Shown: positions 16,798-27,707 of the stretch, piece after piece
How the letters are laid out: the number at the start of each line of letters is the position of its first letter
Position numbering within the stretch: position 1 is the stretch's first letter
From: an uncultured Gammaproteobacteria bacterium
GTDB lineage: Bacteria > Patescibacteriota > Microgenomatia > PFEM01 > JAPLYW01
Assembly: GCA_965230945.1 (NCBI GenBank)
Contig: OZ246397.1
Span: forward strand, 304,749-368,748
Length of the DNA: 64,000 nucleotides
Direction: 5' to 3'
Notes under the pieces: generated by a model
Databases searched by the model: none
What the model saw: the letters and a program-made list of their open reading frames with translations, nothing else
What the model was told of the DNA's origin: nothing
Program-made: the position numbers and the translations under genes

Positions 16798-17043
16798 ATG
16801 CCAATTACTAAATCAGCCAAAAAAGCTCTTCGTAAGGATAAAAGAAGAGCTCAGGTTAACAGAAAAATAAAGGATCGTGTTAAAGCTGCCTTAAAGAAAA
16901 CGCGTAAAAACCCTAACAAGAAAAACCTAAGGGAGGTTTTTAGTTTTCTTGATCGAGCCGCTAAAAAGAAAGTTATCCACAAAAATAGAGCCAATCGTCT
17001 GAAATCAAGGCTGCTTGATCTAGCTAAAAAGAAGAAAAGCTAA
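16798..17043 (+). CDS. rpsT: 30S ribosomal protein S20
   Basis: 81 aa basic protein, 'ITKSAKKALRKDKRRAQVNR'. Confidence 0.9.
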   Translation: MPITKSAKKALRKDKRRAQVNRKIKDRVKAALKKTRKNPNKKNLREVFSFLDRAAKKKVIHKNRANRLKSRLLDLAKKKKS

Positions 17044-17098: not shown

Positions 17099-17656
17099 AT
17101 GGCTGTCCAAACAAAAGCTCCTAAAACAAAAATCGAGTTTATTCCTCAAGAAGATTGGGAAAGAACAAGTTTCGGTAAATTCCTAAAATGGCTCTTAAAT
17201 ATTGGTCGCTGGATTATCATCGTTACTGAACTGATAGTCATTATTGCTTTCATCTCCAGATTCAAATTAGACCGAGATTTAACCAATCTTAACGAAGAAA
17301 TCAAGCAGAAGCAGGCCATTGTCGCCTCATCCTCTGACTTTGAAGAAGAGTTTCTCTTCTTGCAAAAAAGACTTTCTACCATTGAAGGCTTAAGAAAAAC
17401 TCAAATTGAAGCCAATAAAGTAATCGATATCTTTGCCCAATTAACACCCGTTGGTGTTAAGATTTCCAATCTCACTCTAGCTGCCAAAGAAATCAATCTT
17501 ATCGCCACAGCTAACTCAGAATTTACCTTTGCTACCTTCTTAAAAAATCTTAAAAATTCTTCACAAATCAAAGATGTCTCTATCTCCAATGTCAATATCA
17601 GTGAGGAATTCGGCTTAGGAATTAGTTTTAATGTTAAAGCAAAAATTAAAACCTAA
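17099..17656 (+). CDS. pilN: PilN-like type IV pilus assembly protein
   Basis: Short cytoplasmic N-terminus, a single TM, then a periplasmic coiled-coil region. 185 aa. Adjacent to a PilO-like gene. Confidence 0.55.
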   Translation: MAVQTKAPKTKIEFIPQEDWERTSFGKFLKWLLNIGRWIIIVTELIVIIAFISRFKLDRDLTNLNEEIKQKQAIVASSSDFEEEFLFLQKRLSTIEGLRKTQIEANKVIDIFAQLTPVGVKISNLTLAAKEINLIATANSEFTFATFLKNLKNSSQIKDVSISNVNISEEFGLGISFNVKAKIKT

Positions 17657-17661
17657 AAACT

Positions 17662-18282
17662 ATGGTTGATCTTAATCGACAGATTGATTCCCATCGCTAT
17701 CATCGTTACTTCGTTGATCTGGGCAATTTTTATAAAACCAAAAAGTCCAAAGTTTATACTGGTATTATCATTTCCCTTTTAACGATTATCTTTTTCATCA
17801 TCTTTGCGATTAAACCAACCTTAGTAACCATCGCCCAATTAATCAGGCAGGTCAAAGATCAAAAAACGGTTGTCACCGCCTTGGAGAAAAAAACTAATAA
17901 CTTATCTCAAGCCCAGACCAACTATCTTAATATTGAATCCAGGCTCTTTTTGGTAGATGAGGCTTTGCCCACAACTGCCGAAATTAATTCTTTAGTCAAA
18001 CAATTTGAAATCCTTAGTAGAAAATCCGGCATCAGCATTGAAAGCTTCCGCATCAATGAAGCTACTTTGAATACCTCTAAATCAAAAAAGAGCCAAAAAC
18101 AACCAGTCAGCTTTAACCTAACTATCTCTGGTAATTACGAAAGTTTAAAAACCTTCATTGATTCCTTAAATGATTTAAGAAGGATTATCACTGTTGAAAG
18201 TTTTGTCTTTCAAGTAGGGCGGGGTGAGGATGACATTTTAGCCTTAAATATCAATGGCCAAGCTTGGTTTTTAGCAAAATAA
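17662..18282 (+). CDS. pilO: PilO-like type IV pilus assembly protein
   Basis: N-terminal TM, coiled-coil, and a C-terminal alpha/beta region. 206 aa. Confidence 0.55.
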   Translation: MVDLNRQIDSHRYHRYFVDLGNFYKTKKSKVYTGIIISLLTIIFFIIFAIKPTLVTIAQLIRQVKDQKTVVTALEKKTNNLSQAQTNYLNIESRLFLVDEALPTTAEINSLVKQFEILSRKSGISIESFRINEATLNTSKSKKSQKQPVSFNLTISGNYESLKTFIDSLNDLRRIITVESFVFQVGRGEDDILALNINGQAWFLAK

Positions 18283-18283
18283 T

Positions 18284-18655
18284 ATGAATCAACAAAAATT
18301 TCAACTAGGAAAAAAAGCTTTGTTTTTAACAATTCTTAGTTTTATTACTGTCTTTACCTGGGTTGGCTTTGAAGTCTATCAGGCTAGTAGTAAAACTACC
18401 ATTACCAAAGTAACCAAAAAACAAATGGCTCCCATTAATCCCAATATTAAGACCAAGATCATTGAAAGAATTGATGAGAGCCTTTCCTTTTCTCAAGAAG
18501 AAATGGACATTATTCCTGTCAGCGAAGCAACAGCTACTCCTACAGTAGAATTAAGCGAAGAGCCAACAGAAACAACTCCCTCAGCAGAAGCAACTGAAGA
18601 AGAAAGCGCAACTGGTAGTAGTCAAGCAACAGAAGAAAATGATACTCTAGAATAA
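18284..18655 (+). CDS. small membrane-anchored protein with an acidic T/E/S-rich C-terminal tail
   Basis: N-terminal TM 'ALFLTILSFITVFTWVGF', then a low-complexity acidic tail. Confidence 0.5.
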   Translation: MNQQKFQLGKKALFLTILSFITVFTWVGFEVYQASSKTTITKVTKKQMAPINPNIKTKIIERIDESLSFSQEEMDIIPVSEATATPTVELSEEPTETTPSAEATEEESATGSSQATEENDTLE

Positions 18656-18691: not shown

Positions 18692-20065
18692 ATGAAAAAA
18701 ATTCGTCGTCTACCAACAATTGTCGGCATTATTCTCGTTTTGGGAGCTATTGTTAGCGGTGTTTTTTTAATTAAGCAAGGTCCCAGTCTTTTTCTAAGGG
18801 CCGCTCCGGAGATTACCCCTGCCCAAATAAAAATCACTAATGTCAACGGTAGTAGTTTTGCAGTTTCTTGGATTACTGATGAAAAAACCACCGGCTTTGT
18901 AAAATATGGTCTGGAGCAAAAAGTTTCTTTTACTGCAACTGATGATCGCGACCAACTTTCTGGAAAAACAGAAAGTTTTTTAACCCACCATGTAACAGTC
19001 AAAAATCTAAAACCTAACACCAGCTACTTCTTTAAAATTGGCTCTGGTGGCAAAATTTTTGATAACAATGGCCAGGCTTATCAGATAAAAACTGCTCCGG
19101 CCTTTTCAGGTTCCCCGCCTCCTAATGATGTCGCTTACGGTACTGTAGTGGATCAAAACAGCAATCCAGTTGAGGGGGCTATCGTTTATCTTTCCTTAGC
19201 CAATGCCAATCCTACTTCCACCCTCAGTAAATCTTCAGGAAGTTGGGTAATCCCTTTAAATTTAATCCGCTCGGCTGATCTTTCCTCTTATGCCAACTAT
19301 GATAAAGAGGCTTCAATTGAAGAAATTTTTATTCAGGCTGGCTCCTTAGGAACGGCTGCGGTAGTAGCCACCACTAAAAATGACAGTCCCATGCCTAAGA
19401 TTATTCTGGGGCAAAACTTTGACTTTAGACAAATCGCTGAGGAAAAATCAACGACACCAGAAAAAGAACAAGAATCTAGCCAAGAAGCAACGGCTACCAG
19501 TAAATTTAGCCTCAATGAAACAACTACGCCATCAGCCTCTACCATCTCAGCTAAACTCGATATCATCAATCCCGAAGAAAATGAAGAGCTCAACTCTCAA
19601 AAACCACAAATTTTGGGAACTGGACCAGTGAATAAAACCCTTACCATTACCATACAATCTCCAGCCACTTATTCAGGCACAGTTAAAGTAGACAATCAAG
19701 GTAATTGGAGCTGGATCCCGCCTGAAAACCTAGAACCAGGTGAACATACCGTTACTGCCAGCTATACTGATGAAAATGGCCAAGAACAAAAAATTTCCAA
19801 AACCTTCATCGTTCTGGCTTCAGGAACCAGCTCCCTGCCGGCGATGACTGCTTCTCCCTCAGCAGAGACATCGCCTTCTGCCGAAGCTTCTCCTTCACCA
19901 ACACCAACCATAGCTACTGATAGCAGTCGCACTTCTATGCCTTCAACCAGTGAGGGCGTACCAACTTCTGGTTACTTGACACCAACCTTTACGGTCTTCA
20001 TAATAGGAATCAGTTTAATTTTCATGGCATTATTTCTAAGAAAACTTAATGGACGATCTGCCTAA
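18692..20065 (+). CDS. cell-surface protein with an N-terminal signal anchor, an FN3/purple-acid-phosphatase-N-like domain, an S/T/P-rich stalk, and a C-terminal 'VPTSGYLTPTF'+TM+'RKLNGRSA' anchor
   Basis: 'SFAVSWITDEKTTGFVKYG...HHVTVKNLKPNTSYFFKIG' is FN3-like. The C-terminus has an LPXTG-like VPTSG motif followed by a hydrophobic helix and a basic tail. Confidence 0.7.
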   Translation: MKKIRRLPTIVGIILVLGAIVSGVFLIKQGPSLFLRAAPEITPAQIKITNVNGSSFAVSWITDEKTTGFVKYGLEQKVSFTATDDRDQLSGKTESFLTHHVTVKNLKPNTSYFFKIGSGGKIFDNNGQAYQIKTAPAFSGSPPPNDVAYGTVVDQNSNPVEGAIVYLSLANANPTSTLSKSSGSWVIPLNLIRSADLSSYANYDKEASIEEIFIQAGSLGTAAVVATTKNDSPMPKIILGQNFDFRQIAEEKSTTPEKEQESSQEATATSKFSLNETTTPSASTISAKLDIINPEENEELNSQKPQILGTGPVNKTLTITIQSPATYSGTVKVDNQGNWSWIPPENLEPGEHTVTASYTDENGQEQKISKTFIVLASGTSSLPAMTASPSAETSPSAEASPSPTPTIATDSSRTSMPSTSEGVPTSGYLTPTFTVFIIGISLIFMALFLRKLNGRSA

Positions 20066-20744
20066 AACTGACCATGATCAAGATCAAAATACAAAAGAAA
20101 AACCTATTGAGATTGGCTCTTTCGATCAAAAATCTCCCCTTTCTCAAACTCAAAGCAGTTCAATAGAACCGCCAAAAGCAATGCCACCTCTCCCAGAAAC
20201 CGATGAAAAACCATCTGAAGTAAAAATAATAGGAGAACCAGAAGTAAAACAGACGGCACCAGAAGTAACCAATATTACTACCTCACCTCCTGAAAATAAG
20301 AACAAAAAACTTAAAAATATTTCCGCCATTATAGGCTTGCTTATCATTATCATTGCCCTACCTTTAAGTCTTTTGTTAGTTAAACAAAGGCAAGAAATTA
20401 GGAAAAAGGCTGAAGCTCCTGGCCTAAGTGGAAGCATTTCTTTTTGCGGTATTACCATTAGTCCAACTGGACAGTCTTTTAGTAATGGCACTTATACTTT
20501 CACTTATTCAATTACCGGAAGTGGTCATACTGTAAAAGTTCATACTTATGGTTGTGCTTGTGTAGAGGGAGCAAGAGGAAGTTGCGGTACTAATTCTGGA
20601 AAATGTAAAGGTAATAGCTTCACTACCCAAACCCCTTATAGCGGAAGCATTACCGCCCCTAAAATTGGAGATGATTGTGGAACTTATCAAGCTGATGTCT
20701 ATGTCGTCTCTGTAGATGGGAATACAGCCTGTCACAATAACTAA
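20049..20744 (+). CDS. Cys-rich secreted/anchored protein. It has a TM followed by 'VKQRQEIRKKAEA', paralogous to the N-terminus of the next gene. The start is uncertain.
   Basis: TM 'ISAIIGLLIIIIALPLSLLLV' plus the shared post-TM motif. About 8 Cys in the C-terminal 100 aa. Confidence 0.6.
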   Translation: MDDLPKTDHDQDQNTKEKPIEIGSFDQKSPLSQTQSSSIEPPKAMPPLPETDEKPSEVKIIGEPEVKQTAPEVTNITTSPPENKNKKLKNISAIIGLLIIIIALPLSLLLVKQRQEIRKKAEAPGLSGSISFCGITISPTGQSFSNGTYTFTYSITGSGHTVKVHTYGCACVEGARGSCGTNSGKCKGNSFTTQTPYSGSITAPKIGDDCGTYQADVYVVSVDGNTACHNN

Positions 20745-21871
20745 TGAATAAACTTAAATTTAGCAAGTCAACTATTTTTACCCTTTTAGGCATCCTTGTT
20801 ATTGTTGCTTCTATTCCAATGGCAGTAATCTTGGTCAACCAAAGGCAAGAAATTAGAAAAGAAGCGGCTCAATCATGCGGAAGCTGGTGTGCCTCTAAAG
20901 TTGGCCATGCAGATTATCCGTGGTGTATTTGTAATGCGGACAGAAGCCCAAAGTCTGGCTATACAGAAGCTGGTAGAACGACAACCTCAGACTGTACCCG
21001 TTCTTGTGTGGCCTATCGAGAGAAAAGTTCTCCACCACCATCTCAGCCAACAGCTACACCAACACCAAAGTCAAGCGGTCCATCTTGCGGCAGTTGGTGT
21101 GCTTCAAGGGTCGGTCATGCAGATTATCCGTGGTGTATTTGTAATGCGGACAGAAGCCCAAAGTCTGGCTATACAGAAGCTGGTAGAACGACAACCTCAG
21201 ACTGTACCCGTTCTTGTGTTGCTTATAAACAATCTACATCTGCTCCTACTCCAACCCCCTCTGGCCAAAACTGTGGTGGTTGGTGTGCTTCAAAAGTCGG
21301 TCATGCAGATTATCCTTGGTGTATTTGTAATGCCGATAGAAGTCCTGCCTCAGGCTATACAGAAGCTGGTAGAACGACAACCTCAGACTGTACCCGTTCT
21401 TGTGTGGCCTATTCTTCTACCCAAGATGCCGCCGGTGCCGCAGGACATCCAGTTTGGGGACTCTATCAAACCGGTAAAACCTGCTCTGTTACTTCTACAC
21501 CTACCCCGACACCTACTAGAGGAACTACACCTACCCCGACACCTACTAGAGGAACTACACCTACCCCGACACCTACTGGGACCGTTACTCCTACTCCTAC
21601 ACTAACGATCACACCAACCCCAACTCCAACTAGTACAGTAACTCCTACCCCCACAGCCACTGTGACCCCAACTGGTACGATCACACCAACCCCAACTGGT
21701 ACGATCACACCAACCCCAACTGGTACGATCACACCAACCCCTACCCCAACCACAATAGCTGCAGCTACTCCAAGCGCAGAACTACCTGAGGCTGGCTTTA
21801 CCCTTCCTACTTTTGGAGCTATCATCGGTGGTATTCTATTAATAATCACTTCACTGATCTTCATTCTCTAA
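20744..21871 (+). CDS. surface protein with three tandem 6-Cys modules, a PT-repeat linker, and a C-terminal 'LPEAGFTLPTF'+TM anchor
   Basis: Signal anchor, then 'VNQRQEIRKEAAQ', then the module 'CGSWCAS[KR]VGHADYPWCICNADRSP.SGYTEAGRTTTSDCTRSCVAY' three times, then (TPTP)n, then LPEAG and a hydrophobic tail. Confidence 0.8.
   Translation: MNKLKFSKSTIFTLLGILVIVASIPMAVILVNQRQEIRKEAAQSCGSWCASKVGHADYPWCICNADRSPKSGYTEAGRTTTSDCTRSCVAYREKSSPPPSQPTATPTPKSSGPSCGSWCASRVGHADYPWCICNADRSPKSGYTEAGRTTTSDCTRSCVAYKQSTSAPTPTPSGQNCGGWCASKVGHADYPWCICNADRSPASGYTEAGRTTTSDCTRSCVAYSSTQDAAGAAGHPVWGLYQTGKTCSVTSTPTPTPTRGTTPTPTPTRGTTPTPTPTGTVTPTPTLTITPTPTPTSTVTPTPTATVTPTGTITPTPTGTITPTPTGTITPTPTPTTIAAATPSAELPEAGFTLPTFGAIIGGILLIITSLIFIL
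20873..21412 (+). repeat. Tandem intragenic DNA repeats. Three units of about 210, 186 and 144 bp. Units 1 and 2 share about 105 bp of perfect identity, and the last 60 bp of all three units are identical.
   Basis: Aligned by eye. Further 30-bp x3 (21497-21586) and 24-bp x3 (21671-21742) repeats encode the PT linker. Confidence 0.85.
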
Positions 21872-21892: not shown

Positions 21893-23134
21893 ATGAAAGT
21901 CGCTATTATTGGTGGTGGACCTACTGGCTTAATTATTGGTTTGAGAGTTAGTCAAAAAGGGCATCAGATAACCGTTTTTGAAAAAGGAAAAAAGATCGGC
22001 GGTTTAAGTAAAACTTTTAAAAGAAAAGACTGGCAATGGCCAGTTGAACAATTTTATCATCATCTTTTTTCTTCTGATAAAACCGCTAAAAAAGTTATCT
22101 CTCAGTTAGGATTAAAAGATAAACTCTTTTATTCACAACCCAAAACTTCTATTTTCAAAAATCATCAATTTCTAAGGCTTGATTCTCCCTTATCTGTTTT
22201 GAAATTTCCCTACTTCTCTTTCTTAGAAAAGGTAAGATTTGGTCTAGTTACTCTTTATCTTAAATTGAGTAATAATTTTCTCACTTTTGAAAAAATCCCG
22301 GCTGTTAAGTGGTTAAAAAAAGCTTATGGGAAAAAAGTCTATCAATTTTTATGGGAACCTCTTTTAAAATCAAAATTTCCTTTCAAAACTAGCCAAATAT
22401 CCCTCTCTTGGTTTTGGGCTAGAATTAAAGTAAGAGGCTCAAACCTTGGCTATCTTAAAGGAGGCTTTCAGGTTTTAACCGATAAGTTAGAAAAAAAGAT
22501 AAAAGAAAATGGTGGCCAAATACTAACCAATCACGAAATCAAAAGCTTTAAAAATTTAAAAAACTTTGACAAAATTATTTTCACCACTCCCATTTCTATA
22601 TTTTTAAAAATAGCCAAAAACAAACTCCCTAAAAGCTACCAAGAGCAGCTCAAAAAACTAAAAATGCTAGGTGCTCTTAGTCTAATTCTCGTCTCAAAAG
22701 AAAAATTTCTGAAAGATGGCACCTATTGGCTAAATATCAATGAAAAAAATTATCCTTTCGTTGCCGTAGTTGAACATACCAACTTTATCCCCTCAAAACA
22801 CTACAATAAAAATAAAATTCTTTATATTGGCGGTTATTATCCTCAAAATCATCCCTTTTTTAAAATGAACAAAGAGCAAATCTTAAAAGAATTCTTACCT
22901 TACCTTAAAAAAATCAATCCCCAATTTAATCTAAAAGCAATAATCGATTCTTACTTTTTCACTGATCTCAATACACAACCCTTAAGAATAGTTAACTATC
23001 TTCAATTAATGCCTTCTTCTAAAACACCCATTAAAAACACCTTTTTGGCCAACATGCAGTTAGTCTATCCTTATGATCGAGGCACTAACTATGCTTTTCA
23101 ATTAGGAATTAAAATTGCCAATGAAGTGGAATAA
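21893..23134 (+). CDS. FAD-dependent oxidoreductase (amine-oxidase / UDP-galactopyranose-mutase-like Rossmann type)
   Basis: N-terminal 'KVAIIGGGPTGLIIGL...VFEKGKKIGGL' dinucleotide-binding motif. 413 aa. Confidence 0.75.
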   Translation: MKVAIIGGGPTGLIIGLRVSQKGHQITVFEKGKKIGGLSKTFKRKDWQWPVEQFYHHLFSSDKTAKKVISQLGLKDKLFYSQPKTSIFKNHQFLRLDSPLSVLKFPYFSFLEKVRFGLVTLYLKLSNNFLTFEKIPAVKWLKKAYGKKVYQFLWEPLLKSKFPFKTSQISLSWFWARIKVRGSNLGYLKGGFQVLTDKLEKKIKENGGQILTNHEIKSFKNLKNFDKIIFTTPISIFLKIAKNKLPKSYQEQLKKLKMLGALSLILVSKEKFLKDGTYWLNINEKNYPFVAVVEHTNFIPSKHYNKNKILYIGGYYPQNHPFFKMNKEQILKEFLPYLKKINPQFNLKAIIDSYFFTDLNTQPLRIVNYLQLMPSSKTPIKNTFLANMQLVYPYDRGTNYAFQLGIKIANEVE

Positions 23135-24758
23135 AAAAATAATTTTCATCTTTTCTTTATTGGGTATTATCCTTTTAGGGGGGTTTTTACGCTTCTACAA
23201 TCTCAATTGGGATCAAGGTCACTTCTTTCATCCTGATGAAAGAAACATTGCTAACGCTGTTTCCAAAATTAGATTTTTTCATCAATTAAATCCTCAGTTC
23301 TTTGCCTACGGCAGCTTACCTATCTATCTCTATAGAGTTACAGGAGATATTTTAGTCGCTTTGACTAAAAACCAAGATTGGGTCTTAGAATGGCCCAATA
23401 TTAACATTATCGGCAGAAGCTTTTCGGCCCTTTTTTCTAGCCTATCTTTAATTTTGGTCTTCTTTTTAACTAAAAAAATATTTAATAAAAAAGTGGCTAT
23501 TTTGGCTACTTTTTTTACTGCCTTTTGTCCTTCCCTTATCCAAACGGCTCACTTCAGTGTAACCGAAAGTCTACTTGTCTTCTGGTTGCTTTTAATAAGC
23601 CTTCTTTCTTTAAAGATTGCCGATAAGGCAAGCTATAAAAATTATCTGGTGACAGGTTTTATTTGGGGACTAGCTTTAGCCACTAAGATCTCCGCCCTTT
23701 CCTTTGCTATCATTCCCTTAACCGCTCATCTTCTTTTCCATTTTAGAAAAATAAAAAACTATTTAAAACTTCTTGTCGGTTTTACCGTTGCTTTTCTAAC
23801 CTTTGCCTTTTTATCACCTTATACCTTCCTAGCCAAAGAAAAATTTTTGGAATCAATGAGATACGAAAGTGGTATTGTTTGGGGAACACTAAAAGTAGTT
23901 TATGTCCTACAGTTTGAAAAAACCTTACCCTATCTTTTTCAAATCAAAAACTTGCTTTGGCAAATGGGACCAACAGCTTTCTTGGGAATCCTGGGTCTTC
24001 TTGTCCTTTTAGTAATCGCCTTTAAAAAGAAAGAGAAAAAGATTTTTATTCTTCTTTCTTTTCCTATCGCTTACTTTCTCTATGCCGGGCTTTGGTACAC
24101 TAAATTCATCCGCTATATGATTCCCTTACTTCCTTTTTTAGCCATTGGTCTTGCCTGGCTAATTTACAAGATTCGTTTAAAAACTAAAATCTTTGGCAAT
24201 TTTTTAATCATTTTATGTCTCCTTACCAACCTTCTTTGGGCCTTAGCTTTTTTTTCTATCTATAGTAAAGAACAAACAAGAATAACGGCTTCAAAATGGG
24301 TTTACCAAAATATTAAAAAAGGGGATTACATTCTTAACGAACATTGGGATGACGGGCTACCCTTAAATCTTGACTCAAATCATCCCTCTAATTACAAAAT
24401 TGAACAATTAACCATCTATGAAGCCGACAATCAACAAAAACTTAACTACTATGCTGAAAAACTAGACCAAGCTAACTATCTCATCATTAACAGTCGCCGC
24501 CTCTACGGCACTTTAATGTTTTTACCAGAAAAATATCCATTAACCTCTAAATATTACCAACTGCTTTTTGAAAACAAACTAGGCTATAATAAAGTAGCTG
24601 AATTTACCTCCTATCCATCAATTTTAGGAATCGTAATTAATGATGATAAAAGTGAAGAAAGCTTCCAGGTTTATGATCACCCAAAAGTTATGATTTTTGA
24701 AAACAAAAAGATTTTTAACCAAAAGCAGTTTGAAGAGATTTTAAACATTTATGATTAA
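23115..24758 (+). CDS. GT-C fold membrane glycosyltransferase (ArnT/PMT-like, GT39/GT83 family)
   Basis: Polytopic. An 'HPDER' acidic motif sits in the first extracytoplasmic loop ('FFHPDERNIANAV'). Confidence 0.75.
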   Translation: MPMKWNKKIIFIFSLLGIILLGGFLRFYNLNWDQGHFFHPDERNIANAVSKIRFFHQLNPQFFAYGSLPIYLYRVTGDILVALTKNQDWVLEWPNINIIGRSFSALFSSLSLILVFFLTKKIFNKKVAILATFFTAFCPSLIQTAHFSVTESLLVFWLLLISLLSLKIADKASYKNYLVTGFIWGLALATKISALSFAIIPLTAHLLFHFRKIKNYLKLLVGFTVAFLTFAFLSPYTFLAKEKFLESMRYESGIVWGTLKVVYVLQFEKTLPYLFQIKNLLWQMGPTAFLGILGLLVLLVIAFKKKEKKIFILLSFPIAYFLYAGLWYTKFIRYMIPLLPFLAIGLAWLIYKIRLKTKIFGNFLIILCLLTNLLWALAFFSIYSKEQTRITASKWVYQNIKKGDYILNEHWDDGLPLNLDSNHPSNYKIEQLTIYEADNQQKLNYYAEKLDQANYLIINSRRLYGTLMFLPEKYPLTSKYYQLLFENKLGYNKVAEFTSYPSILGIVINDDKSEESFQVYDHPKVMIFENKKIFNQKQFEEILNIYD

Positions 24759-26778
24759 CGATCTTACCTACATTTTTAGTTGGTGGTTTTTATTTTTTGC
24801 TCTTGGTATTCTCTTTTTACCTTTAAATTACTTCTTCTTTAAAAAATTCTTTGACCATGGCTATATCTTCAGTAAAATATTAGCCCTCTTACTTATTAGC
24901 TACACTAGTTGGCTTTTAGCTAGCTTAAAAATCCTTCCTTTTAGCCAAATAAGCATTTTGGGGATCATTATTCTTTGGGGACTGATTAACCTTTTTATCA
25001 AAAAACTCAGCAAATTAAATATCAAGTCCTTGATTAAAAAGAATTGGAAAATCTTTTTACTTGAAGAGCTTCTTTTCATCTTTTGTCTGCTTGCTTGGTC
25101 TTTTGTCCGCGGTTTCCAGCCTAATATCCATGGTTTGGAAAAACTCATGGACTATGGCTTTGTTAATACCATCCTCCGTTCTAGCTTCTTTCCTCCTTTA
25201 GATATGTGGTTTTCAGGAGAAACCATTAACTATTACTACTTTGGTCATCTCATAACTGCTCTTTTAACTAAAATTACTAAAATTGACTCTGCCATTACCT
25301 ATAACCTCATGATCGCCAGCCTTTTTGCCTTTATCTTTACGGCCGTCTTTTCTTTAGCTGGTAACTTAACTTCTTTTTTTCTAAAAGAAAAAAGAATAAA
25401 GAATAAATTAAAATTTATCTTGTTAGGTGGCTTTTTAGCTGCCTTTTTCCTTAGCTTAGGAGGCAACTTACACCCTTTTTACTGGCTTGTAAAAGAAGGT
25501 ACCTTTGTCGGTTATTGGTACCCCGATGCCACCCGTTTTATTGTGGAAAAATTTGGGGCGGCTGATAATACCATTCATGAATTCCCTCTTTATAGTTTTG
25601 TGGTCGCTGACCTTCACAGCCATCTTTTAAACCTGCCTTTTGTCCTTCTTTTTATCGGCCTCTTAATAAGGCTTTTTTATCTAAAAATTATCAAACTAGC
25701 TGATTCCGTCTTTTACGGCTTTTTGCTGGGAATAATGTATATAACTAATCCCTGGGATCTACCAATTTATTTTCTTCTTTTATCTCTGGTTGTTTTTTAT
25801 CATTATTATCTAAACTTCAACTTAAGTTTTAAAACATTTCTTAAGACTTTCTTATTCTCTCTTAGCGTATTTTTACTAGCCATCATTTTTCCCTTGCCTT
25901 TCCATCTTCAATTTAACCCCATTGCCAATAAAATTGCCTTGGTTGACTTTAATTCTCCCCCATGGATGCTTTTGGTTCTATGGGGCTTACCGCTTTTTAT
26001 AAGCTTAAGCTTTCTACTAATTTTAAAAACAAACAAGATGAAATTAAGTAAAACTGATTCTTTTATCTTAACTTTACTTGGCGTCAGTTGGTTTCTAATT
26101 ATTGTTCCCGAGATTATTTACCTTAAAGATATCTACATTCATTCTTATCAACGAGCCAATACCATGTTTAAACTTACCTATCAGTCTTTTGTTATGTTCT
26201 CCTTATCAACCGGCTTCATTTTCTTAAGAATTTTCCTTCTTAAAAGCAAAAAGATAAAAATACTGCTTCTTCTTTTAAGCCTACCCTTTATCTTTTCTGT
26301 CTCTGTCTATCCTTACTTTGCTATCAAGTCTTTTTATGGTTTCCAAAATTACAAAGGTCTTTATGGTTTAAACCAGCTTAAGAATTTTTATCCAGACGAC
26401 TATCAAGGAATTCTATGGCTAAGAGAAAATATTAAAGGCCAACCAGTAATTGTCGAAGCTGTGGGTGAAAGTTACACTGACTTTGCCAGGGTTTCAGCTA
26501 ATACAGGTCTGCCTACCATCTTAGGCTGGCGAGTTCATGAATGGCTTTGGCGAGGTTCCTTTGACGAACCTGGCAAGAGAACTGAAGAAGTCAAAGAAAT
26601 TTATGAAAATAATGACATTGAGAAAACCCAAAAGCTTCTAGAAAAACATCAGGTTAGTCTAATTTTTATAGGCAGTTTAGAAAGAAAACAATATCTTAAT
26701 CTAAAAGAGGAAAAGTTCAGCAAACTAGGGAAGTCTATTTTCTCTTCTGGACAAACCAAGATTTACAAGATTGACTAA
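24751..26778 (+). CDS. large polytopic membrane protein, putative GT-C-type glycosyltransferase/polymerase
   Basis: 675 aa with more than 12 predicted TMs. Conserved 'HEFPLYSFVVADLHSHLLNLPF' loop. Confidence 0.6.
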   Translation: MINDLTYIFSWWFLFFALGILFLPLNYFFFKKFFDHGYIFSKILALLLISYTSWLLASLKILPFSQISILGIIILWGLINLFIKKLSKLNIKSLIKKNWKIFLLEELLFIFCLLAWSFVRGFQPNIHGLEKLMDYGFVNTILRSSFFPPLDMWFSGETINYYYFGHLITALLTKITKIDSAITYNLMIASLFAFIFTAVFSLAGNLTSFFLKEKRIKNKLKFILLGGFLAAFFLSLGGNLHPFYWLVKEGTFVGYWYPDATRFIVEKFGAADNTIHEFPLYSFVVADLHSHLLNLPFVLLFIGLLIRLFYLKIIKLADSVFYGFLLGIMYITNPWDLPIYFLLLSLVVFYHYYLNFNLSFKTFLKTFLFSLSVFLLAIIFPLPFHLQFNPIANKIALVDFNSPPWMLLVLWGLPLFISLSFLLILKTNKMKLSKTDSFILTLLGVSWFLIIVPEIIYLKDIYIHSYQRANTMFKLTYQSFVMFSLSTGFIFLRIFLLKSKKIKILLLLLSLPFIFSVSVYPYFAIKSFYGFQNYKGLYGLNQLKNFYPDDYQGILWLRENIKGQPVIVEAVGESYTDFARVSANTGLPTILGWRVHEWLWRGSFDEPGKRTEEVKEIYENNDIEKTQKLLEKHQVSLIFIGSLERKQYLNLKEEKFSKLGKSIFSSGQTKIYKID

Positions 26779-27707
26779 TCTCTCAAGAGATTTTGAACAT
26801 GCTGATGCACTTCTTGCCAATCACCTGATTCGGGAATCAAAACCCACTGGTTATCATATTTTTCTCTAGAAGGAGGCGGATTAATTAAATAACCGTCATT
26901 TAAAACTTCTGTTTTTATCTTGCTCTTTTTAATCTTCAAGCCTACCTTCAGTAAATCATCATATTTACTTGAGGAAATATCAGTTTTGATATTTTCATTA
27001 ACCAATTTAATTAATTGATTTAAACGACTGTAGCTAAAAACCACTTGAGGATTAAAAAGTCTTTTTTTAATAGCTAAAAGTAATCTTTGTTGTCGTTGAG
27101 AACGAGCAAAGTCAGTACCTTCGTCGCCTTCAGCATTTCTAGAACGAACATATTTTAAGGCTCTTTGGCCATCCATCCATTGTTTTCCAGCTTCAAAATG
27201 GATATCTTGGTAACGGCAATTAAATTCTGGATCTCCATCACATAAATCATCTTCTTTGCCAACAATCGGATAGCGATAGTCATCAAAAGAGCGTTCTACA
27301 TCTACTTCAATTCCATCCAGAAGATCAACCATTTTGGTAAAAACATCGAAATCAACAAGGAGGCTATAGTCTATTTTTTGGCCTAGAATATTACTGACAA
27401 CACTTTTAGTTTCATCCATACCCTCGTAATGATAGACACTATTTAATTTCGTTCTTAATGAGGGCACCCAAATATCCCGAGGCAAAGAAAGCAATAAACT
27501 CTTACCGCTTTCATTTTCTATAGAAAAAAAGATAATCGTATCGGTTAAATCATTACCAGTATGATTTTCACCAGCCATCCCTAAAACCAAGATGTTGGTT
27601 CGTCCTGATGGTGGTTTTAAAAGATAATAACCACCAACAATTAAAGAGCCAATAATTAAAAAGCTAATTCCTAACCAAAAAAGTAATTTTTTCCAACGAT
27701 TGTTCAT
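26775..27707 (-). CDS. LytR-CpsA-Psr (LCP) family cell-envelope polymer transferase
   Basis: N-terminal TM, then 'ILVLGMAG...DTIIF...LSLPRDIWV' LCP signature. Confidence 0.85.
   Translation of the reverse strand: MNNRWKKLLFWLGISFLIIGSLIVGGYYLLKPPSGRTNILVLGMAGENHTGNDLTDTIIFFSIENESGKSLLLSLPRDIWVPSLRTKLNSVYHYEGMDETKSVVSNILGQKIDYSLLVDFDVFTKMVDLLDGIEVDVERSFDDYRYPIVGKEDDLCDGDPEFNCRYQDIHFEAGKQWMDGQRALKYVRSRNAEGDEGTDFARSQRQQRLLLAIKKRLFNPQVVFSYSRLNQLIKLVNENIKTDISSSKYDDLLKVGLKIKKSKIKTEVLNDGYLINPPPSREKYDNQWVLIPESGDWQEVHQHVQNLLRD

What the first reader, a model, noticed from the sequence alone, without database searches (positions are those of the whole stretch)
18692..21871. Three adjacent surface-protein genes with shared sorting-like termini
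Three consecutive plus-strand genes follow the pilN/pilO-like pair. They encode secreted or anchored proteins whose termini look paralogous even though their middles differ.

Genes 2 and 3 both have a TM helix followed at once by a 13-aa motif (VKQRQEIRKKAEA and VNQRQEIRKEAAQ). The DNA shares the 17-mer caaaggcaagaaattag. Gene 1 has a weaker version, LIKQGPSLFLRAAPE.

Genes 1 and 3 both end with [LV]P-x-[AS]-G-[FY]-x-x-PTF followed by a hydrophobic helix (VPTSGYLTPTF... and LPEAGFTLPTF...). That is an LPXTG-like sortase signal variant. Gene 1 also keeps a basic tail.

Shared processing signals on different passenger domains would point to a dedicated export and anchoring route for a family of adhesin-like proteins, perhaps linked to the pilus genes. 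I do not recognise the post-TM QRQEIRK motif as a described signal.
Basis: seen in the sequence. Interest (0 to 1): 0.75.

Follow-up and report, generated by a model that had tools for sequence, protein, structure and literature searches.

The report
Shared export and anchoring signals, CPR surface proteins
Three neighbouring surface-protein genes of an uncultured ultra-small (CPR/Patescibacteria) bacterium carry a near-invariant, undescribed N-terminal export leader, and two of them also carry a sortase-like C-terminal anchor signal; both signals recur on many unrelated secreted proteins of this lineage.

Summary
Genes g1 (18692-20065), g2 (20049-20744) and g3 (20744-21871) exist as described and the motifs occur nowhere else in the window.

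They are not a local duplication. They are the variable end of an operon, rpsT-pilN-pilO-orfX-g1-g2-g3-flavoprotein-PMT-like glycosyltransferase. This operon is conserved in more than 36 Microgenomates genomes.

The post-TM "QRQEIRK.A" element belongs to a roughly 35-residue leader, K..[IL]LG[LI]L...AS[IL]P.AV.LVKQRQEIRK.A.
- An exhaustive profile search found it in 217 protein clusters.
- Their passengers are unrelated: cohesin, GH5 with dockerin, Ig-like and Cys-rich modules.
- It lies at the N-terminus in half of the top hits. In the other half it follows a proline-rich cytoplasmic extension.
- No Pfam or NCBIfam model and no paper in the searched library covers it.

The C-terminal signal is LPXTG-like and comes in two classes.
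- g1: [VI]Px[SPT]G, helix, basic tail.
- g3: LPxAG..PT[FW]G, helix, no basic tail.
- Relatives carry canonical LPETG or LPVTG in the same tail context, and one relative passes TIGR01167.

No sortase gene was found in the window or in any fetched locus. Its presence rests on published Microgenomates surveys.

Verdict: lineage-specific variants of known kinds of signal. The leader is the more novel part, and its mechanism is unresolved.

The parts
17099..17656 (+). pilN-like gene, the first gene of the conserved operon after rpsT
   Evidence: Pfam PilN, 4.8e-9. The N-terminus IEFIPQED corresponds to INLLP in relatives. Synteny is conserved in 36 loci.
17662..18282 (+). pilO-like gene
   Evidence: Pfam PilO, 9.2e-17.
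18284..18655 (+). orfX: a small bitopic membrane protein with an acidic Ser/Thr/Glu-rich tail. It is conserved between pilO and g1.
   Evidence: ORF. Present in all syntenic loci. No Pfam hit.
18692..20065 (+). g1: a conserved stalk-like surface protein. It has an N-terminal helix, three beta-sandwich domains (FN3/Pur_ac_phosph_N, CarboxypepD_reg-like, Big_13) and a C-terminal sorting signal.
   Evidence: Pfam. 498 homologues, 49-95% identical among the 120 best. AF2 mean pLDDT 75.9, with helices at 9-33 and 431-453. Foldseek finds tandem FN3 and adhesin extender domains.
18692..18811 (+). g1 N-terminal leader variant: MKKIRRLPTIVGIILVLGAIVSGVFLIKQGPSLFLRAAPE
   Evidence: Conserved as RR[LI]PT[IL]..LIkQG..lFLRA.PE in 120 orthologues. 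Same register as the QRQEIRK leader.
19928..20065 (+). g1 C-terminal signal, class 1: R.SMPST..G-VPTSG-YLTPTF, a hydrophobic helix, then the basic tail RKLNGRSA. The pentapeptide is at 19958-19972.
   Evidence: Position 1 is V or I in 107 of 117. Position 4 is S 76, P 26, T 9. G is invariant. 111 of 117 have K/R in the last 10 aa.
20049..20744 (+). g2: a type-II bitopic protein with a disordered Pro-rich cytoplasmic extension (aa 1-87), the leader helix and an Ig-like Cys-containing ectodomain (aa 130-222). It has no C-terminal signal.
   Evidence: Orthologues conserve the M[DN][DN]LP start and a PIEIGSL motif. AF2 gives a helix at 92-119 and a beta-sandwich with pLDDT>90. No significant PDB match.
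20310..20417 (+). g2 leader: KLKNISAIIGLLIIIIALPLSLLLVKQRQEIRKKAEA. The 13-aa motif is at 20379-20417.
20744..21871 (+). g3: leader, then three copies of a roughly 65-aa six-Cys module, a Thr/Pro-rich stalk and a C-terminal signal.
   Evidence: Repeats D1 and D2. Positional orthologues have different Cys-rich passengers.
20744..20872 (+). g3 leader: MNKLKFSKSTIFTLLGILVIVASIPMAVILVNQRQEIRKEAAQ. The motif is at 20831-20869.
21782..21871 (+). g3 C-terminal signal, class 2: LPEAG-FTLPTFG, a hydrophobic helix, then stop, with no basic tail.
   Evidence: LPxAG is the commonest form. 28 of 30 class-2 tails lack K/R. The tail gives a weak match to the tail of NF053819, a sortase-dependent protein family (E=0.085).
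21893..26778 (+). Conserved downstream neighbours, given as context: an amine-oxidase-like flavoprotein, a PMT/PMT_2 family glycosyltransferase and a DUF2298 membrane protein.
   Evidence: The same order is seen in L002, L003 and L040.

Best explanation
g1, g2 and g3 are cell-surface proteins encoded at the variable end of a conserved Microgenomates operon (rpsT-pilN-pilO-orfX-g1-g2-g3-...).

Shown:
- g2 and g3 begin their membrane-crossing segment with a lineage-specific leader cassette. This is a 21-residue hydrophobic helix ending [IL]P.AV.LV. It continues without a break into a short charged helix, KQRQEIRK.A.
- The same cassette sits on at least 217 protein clusters with unrelated extracellular passengers.
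- g1 carries a same-register variant of this cassette.
- g1 and g3 also carry a C-terminal tripartite signal that is homologous in layout to LPXTG cell-wall sorting signals.

Inferred:
- The leader works as a Sec-type signal peptide or signal anchor that puts the passenger outside the cell. In g2-type proteins it is uncleaved, or at least anchoring. In N-terminal contexts it may be cleaved shortly after the invariant Ala.
- A sortase cuts the C-terminal signal between position 4 and Gly of [LVI]Px[TSA]G and attaches the protein to the wall.
- The Thr/Pro-rich stalk spans the wall. It may be O-glycosylated by the adjacent PMT-family enzyme.
- g2 has no C-terminal signal and stays N-terminally anchored, with its proline-rich tail in the cytoplasm.

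The two signals are independent modules that recombine freely with passenger domains.
For: Synteny and orthology:
-.

Leader distribution:
- An exhaustive hmmsearch found 217 clusters at E<=1e-3 and 28 at E<=1e-10.
- Logo from the top 150 hits: Q0 96%, R1 86%, Q2 100%, E3 89%, I4 80%, R5 98%, K6 84%, A8 99%, L-3 97%, P-8 86%. Conservation collapses after A8/A9.
- 75 of the 150 have the leader at the N-terminus. The other 75 have it after a Pro-rich extension.

Leader passengers:
- Cohesin (P0184, P0208), GH5 with dockerin (P0188), Big_13 (P0248).
- A GH, a cohesin protein and an FN3 protein outside the operon in L009 and L014.

Structure:
- AF2 models g2 residues 92-119 as one helix running through QRQEIRK, followed by a folded ectodomain.

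C-terminal signal on non-operon proteins:
- ELPEAGIPTPTFF (a cohesin protein, L009) and ELPETGILTPTFF (L017).
- LPETG, LPVTG and xPVSG among the leader-bearing clusters.

Model scores:
- TIGR01167 gives 22.7 bits for the tail of a relative (cut-off 15.9), 15.8 for the LPETG tail and 13.3 for the LPEAG cohesin tail.
- Pfam Gram_pos_anchor gives 20.0 bits, equal to its cut-off.
- No PEP-, PGF- or VPDSG-CTERM model hits.
- g1's pentapeptide lies in a disordered stretch just before helix 431-453.

Literature:
- A complete Microgenomates genome encodes a sortase (PMC7143001).

Module shuffling:
- P0139 has a g2-type ectodomain in a g3 frame.
- g2 and g3 are fused in L019 and L025.
Against: - No sortase gene was found in the 64-kb window or in about 45 related loci. 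Its presence in this genome is unverified.
- The tails of g1 and g3 themselves score below the TIGR01167 and PF00746 thresholds. g1's tail gets no hit at all.
- g3-class tails lack the positively charged tail that canonical sorting signals need: 28 of 30 have none.
- g1-class pentapeptides often have Pro at position 4, as in VPEPG and IPKPG (26 of 117). Pro is an unlikely residue before a sortase cleavage site.
- The invariant part of the leader does not fit the signal peptidase I -3/-1 rule. If A8 is -1, then -3 is Lys.
- Half of the leaders are internal, behind conserved cytoplasmic domains. That is atypical for cleaved signal peptides.
- Other exported proteins in the window lack the leader, for example the LCP protein, the PEGA/SH3 protein and the M23 peptidase. 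A classical signal peptide also occurs in the lineage (L017 5289). So the leader is a subclass, not the default signal, and this hints at some added function.
Confidence: 0.6

Rival explanations
1. The C-terminal helices are plain membrane anchors. The conserved [LVI]PxxG...PTF segment is a juxtamembrane structural or interaction motif, and no transpeptidase processes it.
For: - No sortase was found nearby.
- g3-class tails have no basic retention tail.
- Pro occupies position 4 in many g1 orthologues.
- Conservation extends well beyond a pentapeptide: R.SMPST..GVP..G.LTPTF in g1 and PT[FW]G in class 2.
- The window's tails are below the LPXTG model cut-offs.
Against: - The same tail context carries canonical LPETG or LPVTG in relatives.
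- One relative passes TIGR01167.
- The layout of a T/P-rich stalk, a pentapeptide, 5-7 residues and a helix at the extreme C-terminus is that of sorting signals.
- Sortase is reported to be near ubiquitous in Microgenomates.
Confidence: 0.22
2. The QRQEIRK leader is a dedicated sorting or processing signal, comparable in role to YSIRK, the lipobox or prepilin signals. An unknown CPR-specific factor or protease would read it, possibly one coupled to the PilN/PilO platform. The invariant Ala would mark a non-canonical cleavage site.
For: - The motif is almost invariant across unrelated passengers, and conservation stops sharply after A8/A9.
- It does not fit the signal peptidase I -3/-1 rule.
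- Only a subset of exported proteins carries it.
- g2 and g3, which carry it, are fixed next to pilN/pilO in more than 36 genomes.
- The architecture of a helix plus a beta-domain gives a weak Foldseek match to an archaeal type IV pilin (8fk7, E=0.014).
- No known model covers the motif.
Against: - No candidate enzyme was identified.
- Many carriers are ordinary exoenzymes or cohesins with no pilus link.
- No prepilin-type G/A-F...E motif is present.
- The pilin match is not significant.
- Conservation could reflect a constraint on membrane insertion or topology in this lineage.
Confidence: 0.2
3. The C-terminal signal is an exosortase/archaeosortase-type signal, a 'PTF-CTERM' analogous to PGF-, PEP- or VPDSG-CTERM. 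The residues at the helix boundary would be the recognised element.
For: - PT[FWIL] sits exactly at the start of the helix, as PGF or PEP does.
- Some g1 orthologues read VPEPG or VPDSG.
- A Thr-rich stalk precedes it, as in PGF-CTERM glycoproteins (my own knowledge of Haft et al. 2012).
Against: - No NCBIfam PEP-, PGF- or VPDSG-CTERM model hits any tail even at E<=10. The LPXTG models do hit relatives.
- More distant orthologues lose PTF but keep xP[VI][ST]G (L035-L038).
- No EpsH-family gene was seen.
Confidence: 0.07
4. The shared termini reflect only a recent local duplication or gene conversion among the three genes, with no signal function.
For: g2 and g3 share a 17-mer and a 35-nt stretch at 83% identity.
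Against: - DNA similarity is confined to the motif codons, in an AT-rich genome with few codon choices.
- The leader occurs in 217 clusters and the tail on unrelated proteins in many genomes.
- The positional orthologues have been separate genes across the order.
Confidence: 0.01

Closest known systems
LPXTG cell-wall sorting signal and sortase (TIGR01167, PF00746). This includes the LPXAG variants of Staphylococcus aureus surface proteins, which I cite from my own knowledge.
   Same: - Position at the extreme C-terminus.
- A pentapeptide with invariant Pro2 and Gly5, followed by a 5-7 residue spacer and a hydrophobic helix.
- A preceding Thr/Pro-rich wall-spanning stalk and an N-terminal export signal.
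- Canonical LPETG or LPVTG in some relatives, one of which passes the model cut-off.
   Different: - Position 4 is Ala (g3 class) or Ser/Pro (g1 class) rather than Thr. Position 1 is Val or Ile in g1.
- A conserved PT[FW]G follows the pentapeptide.
- The g3 class has no basic tail.
- The window's own tails are sub-threshold.
- The cognate sortase was not located.
Signal peptides with conserved motifs: YSIRK-G/S (PF04650), KxYKxGKxW (TIGR03715) and the ESPR of autotransporters (PF13018).
   Same: A strongly conserved sequence motif lies inside an otherwise generic export signal and is shared by non-homologous surface proteins of one lineage.
   Different: - Those motifs lie in the n-region, before the hydrophobic core. 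QRQEIRK.A lies after it.
- The hydrophobic core here is of TM length (21 aa).
- Half of the carriers have the element internally, behind a cytoplasmic domain.
- None of those models hit.
PilMNOP(Q) alignment subcomplex of type IV pili
   Same: pilN and pilO homologues come first, followed by further bitopic envelope proteins in one tight operon.
   Different: - No pilM, pilP or secretin homologue was recognised here.
- The genes that follow are FN3/Ig-like, Cys-rich and wall-anchor-type proteins.
- A functional link to pili is inferred from synteny only.
PGF-CTERM, PEP-CTERM and VPDSG-CTERM (archaeosortase/exosortase signals)
   Same: A short motif at the start of a C-terminal helix, preceded by a Thr-rich stalk.
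   Different: No model hit. The motif differs, there is no basic tail in class 2, and no EpsH-family enzyme was seen.

Membership tests
LPXTG sortase sorting signal | LPXTG-type pentapeptide near the C-terminus | tested here: inconclusive
   g3 has LPEAG and g1 has VPTSG. Pro2 and Gly5 are invariant but Thr4 is replaced. Relatives carry LPETG or LPVTG in the same context.
LPXTG sortase sorting signal | Hydrophobic segment directly after the pentapeptide, at the extreme C-terminus | tested here: met
   Helix 431-453 in the g1 AF2 model. Hydropathy scan for g1 and g3.
LPXTG sortase sorting signal | Positively charged tail after the hydrophobic segment | tested here: not met
   Met for g1 (RKLNGRSA; 111 of 117 orthologues). 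Not met for g3: it ends ...SLIFIL, and 28 of 30 class-2 tails have no K/R.
LPXTG sortase sorting signal | Score above the curated cut-off of TIGR01167 or PF00746 | tested here: not met
   g1's tail gets no hit. g3's tail matches only the tail of NF053819 (E=0.085). Relatives score 22.7 bits (pass), 15.8 and 13.3 against a cut-off of 15.9.
LPXTG sortase sorting signal | Cognate sortase encoded in the genome | not testable with these tools
   None in the 64-kb window or in about 45 related loci. The literature reports sortase as near ubiquitous in Microgenomates.
Sec-type signal peptide or signal anchor | Basic n-region followed by a hydrophobic core, placing the passenger outside the cell | tested here: met
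   A K/R-rich stretch precedes a 21-residue hydrophobic core. The passengers are extracellular domain types: cohesin, GH5 with dockerin, Ig-like.
Sec-type signal peptide or signal anchor | Signal peptidase I site, with small residues at -3 and -1 soon after the core | tested here: inconclusive
   The invariant A8 would have Lys at -3. AxA-like sites occur at variable distances downstream, for example AAPA|T in cohesins and AEA|P in g2. No SignalP run or proteomic data were available.
PEP-CTERM / PGF-CTERM / VPDSG-CTERM | Match to the NCBIfam sorting-domain models, and an EpsH-family enzyme | tested here: not met
   No such model hits at E<=10. No EpsH-like gene among the annotated neighbours.
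Type IV (pre)pilin | Class III signal: a short basic leader, G/A, then a hydrophobic residue, with Glu at +5 | tested here: not met
   Absent from the N-termini of g1, g2 and g3. Only a weak fold match to 8fk7 (E=0.014).

The most novel reading that the evidence does not exclude
The near-invariant post-membrane motif LVKQRQEIRK.A may be a new class of dedicated protein-sorting or processing signal in CPR bacteria. A so-far unidentified receptor or protease would read it and cleave at, or just after, the invariant Ala despite Lys at -3.

The two classes of C-terminal signal would then be handled by different enzymes or have different fates. These classes are [VI]PxSG with a basic tail and LPxAG..PTFG without one.

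Together they would form a CPR-specific surface-display system whose core members sit in the pilN/pilO operon.
Probability: 0.2. Interest if true: 0.8.

Novelty: new variant of a known kind. Interest (0 to 1): 0.55.

Why it matters
CPR/Patescibacteria are thought to live attached to host cells, and their surface proteins are almost entirely uncharacterised.

- The leader is a recognisable sequence tag of roughly 35 residues. Together with the variant sortase-like tail, it gives a simple way to list part of the surface proteome of a large uncultured lineage. That proteome includes cohesin- and dockerin-bearing proteins and glycoside hydrolases.
- Sequence-invariant elements inside export signals have historically pointed to dedicated machinery. 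Tat, the lipobox, YSIRK, prepilin signals and PEP-CTERM are examples. A new one is therefore a concrete, testable lead.
- The data also define sortase-motif variants (LPxAG, [VI]PxSG, xPVSG) for a phylum-level group in which no sortase substrates have been described.

Tried and rejected
- Word-indexed protein searches with short leader profiles returned only 2-4 short fragments, although leader proteins are in the collection. They say nothing about breadth. The exhaustive search was used instead.
A 35-aa alignment was too short for the word-indexed search.
- Sortase hunt. None found a sortase. These loci cover mostly the same genomic region, so absence there says little about the genome.
- NCBIfam and Pfam scans of the full proteins and of the isolated leaders and tails found no model for the leader and no exosortase-type C-terminal model.
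- A literature search for the motif string and for CPR sortase substrates found nothing relevant.
- The 2026 'Pam pilus' preprint describes a different CPR operon, next to ATP synthase genes and using chaperone-usher-like donor-strand exchange. I rejected it as the explanation.
- Fold searches of g1 and g2 gave only generic FN3 or Ig-like matches.
- The promoter and terminator scan was uninformative.
- The shared 17-mer is not good evidence for gene conversion. Similarity is limited to 35 nt of motif codons in an AT-rich genome.

Full report
**1. What is in the window**

The region holds a tight run of plus-strand genes.

| Gene | Coordinates |
|---|---|
| rpsT | 16798-17043 |
| pilN-like | 17099-17656 |
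| pilO-like | 17662-18282 |
| orfX, small bitopic ORF | 18284-18655 |
| g1 | 18692-20065 |
| g2 | 20049-20744 (overlaps g1 by 17 nt) |
| g3 | 20744-21871 (overlaps g2 by 1 nt) |

- Pfam confirms PilN and PilO. In g1 it finds Pur_ac_phosph_N/fn3 (aa 43-134), CarboxypepD_reg (150-189) and Big_13 (296-370). It finds nothing for g2 and g3.
The 17-mer occurs only at 20385 and 20840. In a six-frame scan of the whole window, both motif types occur only in these genes.
- The window is AT-rich, about 37% GC.
- The closest named homologues come from Candidatus Shapirobacteria and Woesebacteria, that is Microgenomates within the CPR/Patescibacteria.
- The same sequence is on a JGI metagenome contig.

**2. 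The three genes are conserved positional orthologues, not a local duplication**

- g1 has 498 detected homologues. The best 120 are 49-95% identical and of similar length.
- A scan of one genome per GTDB species found 36 loci. They are titled Shapirobacteria, Beckwithbacteria, Blackburnbacteria, Woesebacteria or 'Patescibacteria group'. Some MAG titles are evidently placeholder names.
- Across these loci, and in L002, L003, L040 and L041, the gene order recurs: rpsT, pilN, pilO, orfX, g1, g2, g3, amine-oxidase-like flavoprotein, PMT-family glycosyltransferase, DUF2298.
- g1 is well conserved. The passenger domains of g2 and g3 differ between genomes.
- The two genes are sometimes fused (L019 11337, L025 2952, L023 11316) or duplicated (L012).
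- P0139 carries a g2-type ectodomain in a g3-type frame, with a short N-terminus and an LPEAG tail. The signals and the passengers therefore behave as separable modules.

**3. The N-terminal element**

In related loci the segment after the first hydrophobic helix reads [ST][IL]P.A[VI].L[VT][KQ]QRQ[ED][IT]RK.A. It appears in three settings:
- in g2 orthologues of many genomes;
- in g3 orthologues of the window's near relatives only; more distant g3 orthologues have KLYQ....P[IV]APTAP instead;
- on proteins outside the operon: a glycoside hydrolase and a cohesin protein in L009, an FN3 protein in L014 and a further protein in L021.

A 39-position profile of the g2 and g3 leaders was searched with HMMER against all 1.84 billion cluster representatives.
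- It found 217 clusters at E<=1e-3 and 28 at E<=1e-10.
- In the best 150 hits the logo is K..[IL]..[IL]LG[LI]L.[IL].AS[IL]P.AV.LVKQRQEIRK[EK]AA.

| Position | Residue | Frequency |
|---|---|---|
| -8 | P | 86% |
| -3 | L | 97% |
| 0 | Q | 96% |
| 1 | R | 86% |
| 2 | Q | 100% |
| 3 | E | 89% |
| 4 | I | 80% |
| 5 | R | 98% |
| 6 | K | 84% |
| 8 | A | 99% |

- After position 8/9 conservation disappears. These percentages come from the top hits of a profile search, so they overstate the conservation of the wider family.
- Half of the leaders start within the first 45 residues or so. The other half lie 45-160 residues in, behind a disordered proline-rich extension.
- In g2 orthologues this extension keeps a conserved M[DN][DN]LP start and a PIEIGSL motif. 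It is therefore translated and functional, and the helix acts as a type-II anchor there.
- The passengers are unrelated to each other: cohesin domains, a GH5 cellulase with a dockerin, Big_13 Ig-like domains, several Cys-rich modules and a recurrent, unannotated C-terminal domain of about 90 aa.
- The named members are 'Patescibacteria group bacterium'.
- AlphaFold2 models g2 residues 92-119 as one helix running through QRQEIRK. A short coil and a confident Ig-like sandwich (130-222) follow. The sandwich has no significant PDB match.
- No Pfam or NCBIfam model matches the leader, either in the full proteins or as an isolated peptide. No paper in the searched library contains the motif string.
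- g1's LIKQGPSLFLRAA is in the same register (K-1, Q0, hydrophobic +4, A8, A9). It is conserved in its own form in all g1 orthologues.

**4. How the leader most likely works**

- Shown: it sits on proteins whose domains are extracellular types. It has a basic n-region and a 21-residue hydrophobic core. It occurs both at the N-terminus and internally.
- Inferred: it is a Sec-type signal peptide or signal anchor that gives an N-in, C-out topology.
- Whether it is cleaved is open, for four reasons.
  - The sharp end of conservation at A8/A9, and the start of folded domains 5-10 residues later, suggest a processing site. An example is RKKAAPATTLSLSP in cohesins.
  - A8 would have Lys at -3, which does not fit signal peptidase I.
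  - AxA-like sites occur only at variable distances downstream.
  - Internal leaders behind conserved cytoplasmic domains argue for an uncleaved anchor, at least in g2.
- Other exported proteins in the window lack the motif: the LCP protein, the PEGA/SH3 protein and the M23 peptidase. A classical signal peptide is also seen in the lineage (L017 5289).
- The leader is thus a subclass of export signal. This keeps open a dedicated function, to which I give about 0.2.

**5. The C-terminal element**

Two classes emerge.

| | Class 1 (g1 and orthologues) | Class 2 (g3 and many other proteins) |
|---|---|---|
| Layout | R.SMPST..G-[VI]Px[S/P/T]G-.LTPTF, helix, basic tail | LPxAG, or xPVSG, MPEAG, LPSSG, followed by ..PT[FWIL]G, helix, stop |
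| Pentapeptide | Position 1 V/I in 107 of 117; position 4 S 76, P 26, T 9 | LPxAG commonest |
| K/R in last 10 aa | 111 of 117 | 2 of 30 |

- The same tail occurs on non-operon proteins. Examples are a cohesin protein (ELPEAGIPTPTFF, L009 4093-4902) and a small protein with a classical signal peptide and canonical LPETG (ELPETGILTPTFF, L017 5289-5564).
- Among the 150 leader-bearing clusters, 36 have such a tail. These include LPETG (P0248) and LPVTG (P0233).
- More distant operon orthologues keep xP[VI][ST]G but lose PTF (L035-L038).
- Model scores for isolated tails:
  - TIGR01167 scores one relative at 22.7 bits (cut-off 15.9), the LPETG tail at 15.8 and the LPEAG cohesin tail at 13.3.
  - Pfam Gram_pos_anchor reaches its cut-off of 20.0 for one relative.
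  - g3's own tail matches only the tail of a sortase-dependent family (NF053819, E=0.085), and g1's tail matches nothing.
  - No PEP-, PGF- or VPDSG-CTERM model hits.
- In the g1 AF2 model the pentapeptide lies in a disordered Ser/Thr/Pro stretch just before helix 431-453.

**6. Sortase**

- No sortase was found in the window or in the roughly 45 fetched loci. These loci mostly sample the same genomic neighbourhood.
- The published CPR protein-family survey reports a sortase family in more than half of CPR genomes and 'near ubiquitous in Microgenomates' (PMC6744442). A complete Microgenomates genome also encodes one (PMC7143001).
- I therefore infer, but did not show, that a sortase processes these tails.
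- Points against this inference:
  - class 2 has no basic tail;
  - class 1 has frequent Pro at position 4;
  - the window's own sequences score below the model thresholds.
- The main rival is an unprocessed membrane anchor with a conserved juxtamembrane motif (about 0.22). An exosortase-type 'PTF-CTERM' reading is less likely (about 0.07).

**7. Comparison with what is known**

- The tail works like, and is probably a divergent member of, the LPXTG sorting-signal family. Formal membership is not established for g1 and g3, because the thresholds and, for g3, the basic tail are not met.
- The leader resembles in concept the motif-bearing signal peptides (YSIRK-G/S, KxYKxGKxW, ESPR). Its motif, however, lies after the hydrophobic core rather than before it, and it matches none of those models.
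- The link to type IV pilus genes rests on conserved synteny with pilN and pilO only. No prepilin-type signal is present.
- The recently described CPR 'Pam' pilus operon is a different locus.

**8. Verdict**

The termini are shared, modular signals, and the C-terminal one is sortase-like. A dedicated route and a cognate enzyme are not demonstrated.
- The C-terminal signal is a lineage-specific variant of a known kind.
- The leader is an undescribed, unusually invariant element of an export signal with a wide distribution in one CPR group. It is the part that deserves follow-up.

Noticed in passing
window 21893-27707: Directly downstream of g3, in conserved synteny, lie an amine-oxidase-like flavoprotein, a PMT/PMT_2 family glycosyltransferase (23121-24758), a DUF2298 membrane protein (24751-26778) and, on the minus strand, an LCP (LytR_cpsA_psr) gene. 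The long Thr/Pro-rich stalks of g1 and g3 are plausible O-glycosylation substrates.
   Followed up: partly
window 20869-21412 and 21465-21744: g3 contains three tandem copies of a 148-nt unit, 86-92% identical, each encoding a roughly 65-aa six-Cys module (CGSWCASKVGHADYPWCICNADRSP.SGYTEAGRTTTSDCTRSCVAY). It also has 24-30-nt TPTPT repeats. This points to recent internal expansion.
   Followed up: partly
window 20049-20309 (g2 aa 1-87): g2 orthologues keep a disordered Pro-rich cytoplasmic extension with a conserved M[DN][DN]LP start and a PIEIGSL motif. This could be a short linear motif for a cytoplasmic partner. It loosely recalls the IEFIP/INLLP N-terminus of the neighbouring PilN.
   Followed up: no
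P0184, P0208, P0199, P0188; L009 3527-4902; L044: Cohesin-domain proteins and a GH5 cellulase with a type I dockerin carry the leader. These are cellulosome-like modules in Patescibacteria.
   Followed up: partly
L009 1788-6318; L040 6725-11149: The hrcA-murJ gap next to the pilN/pilO operon is empty in the window. In other genomes it holds 4-gene clusters of surface proteins and glycoside hydrolases. It looks like a variable slot for surface-protein genes.
   Followed up: no
P0171, P0166, P0178 and 32 others (C-termini): A domain of about 90 aa ends 35 of the 150 leader-bearing clusters and has no Pfam match. Its sequence is ...DLSTI.VGQTVYFAT.G....QGITKARFRINGG.WQETT....N.FYI.YTIP..GSY.VESMVYNP.LGW[YHK].
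   Followed up: no
L010, L009, L012-L017, L033, L034 (g3 orthologues): In most genomes g3 orthologues carry a different post-helix motif, [KR]LYQ....P[IV]APTAP, instead of QRQEIRK. In L009 the g2 and g3 juxtamembrane segments both deviate from the QRQEIRK consensus (WKLRQTE / IKLYQIG). This hints at a common constraint or partner.
   Followed up: no
record titles of L004-L038: Many GTDB MAG records that hold this Microgenomates operon are titled 'uncultured Gammaproteobacteria/Pseudomonadales bacterium'. These are evidently placeholder or wrong taxonomic labels.
   Followed up: no
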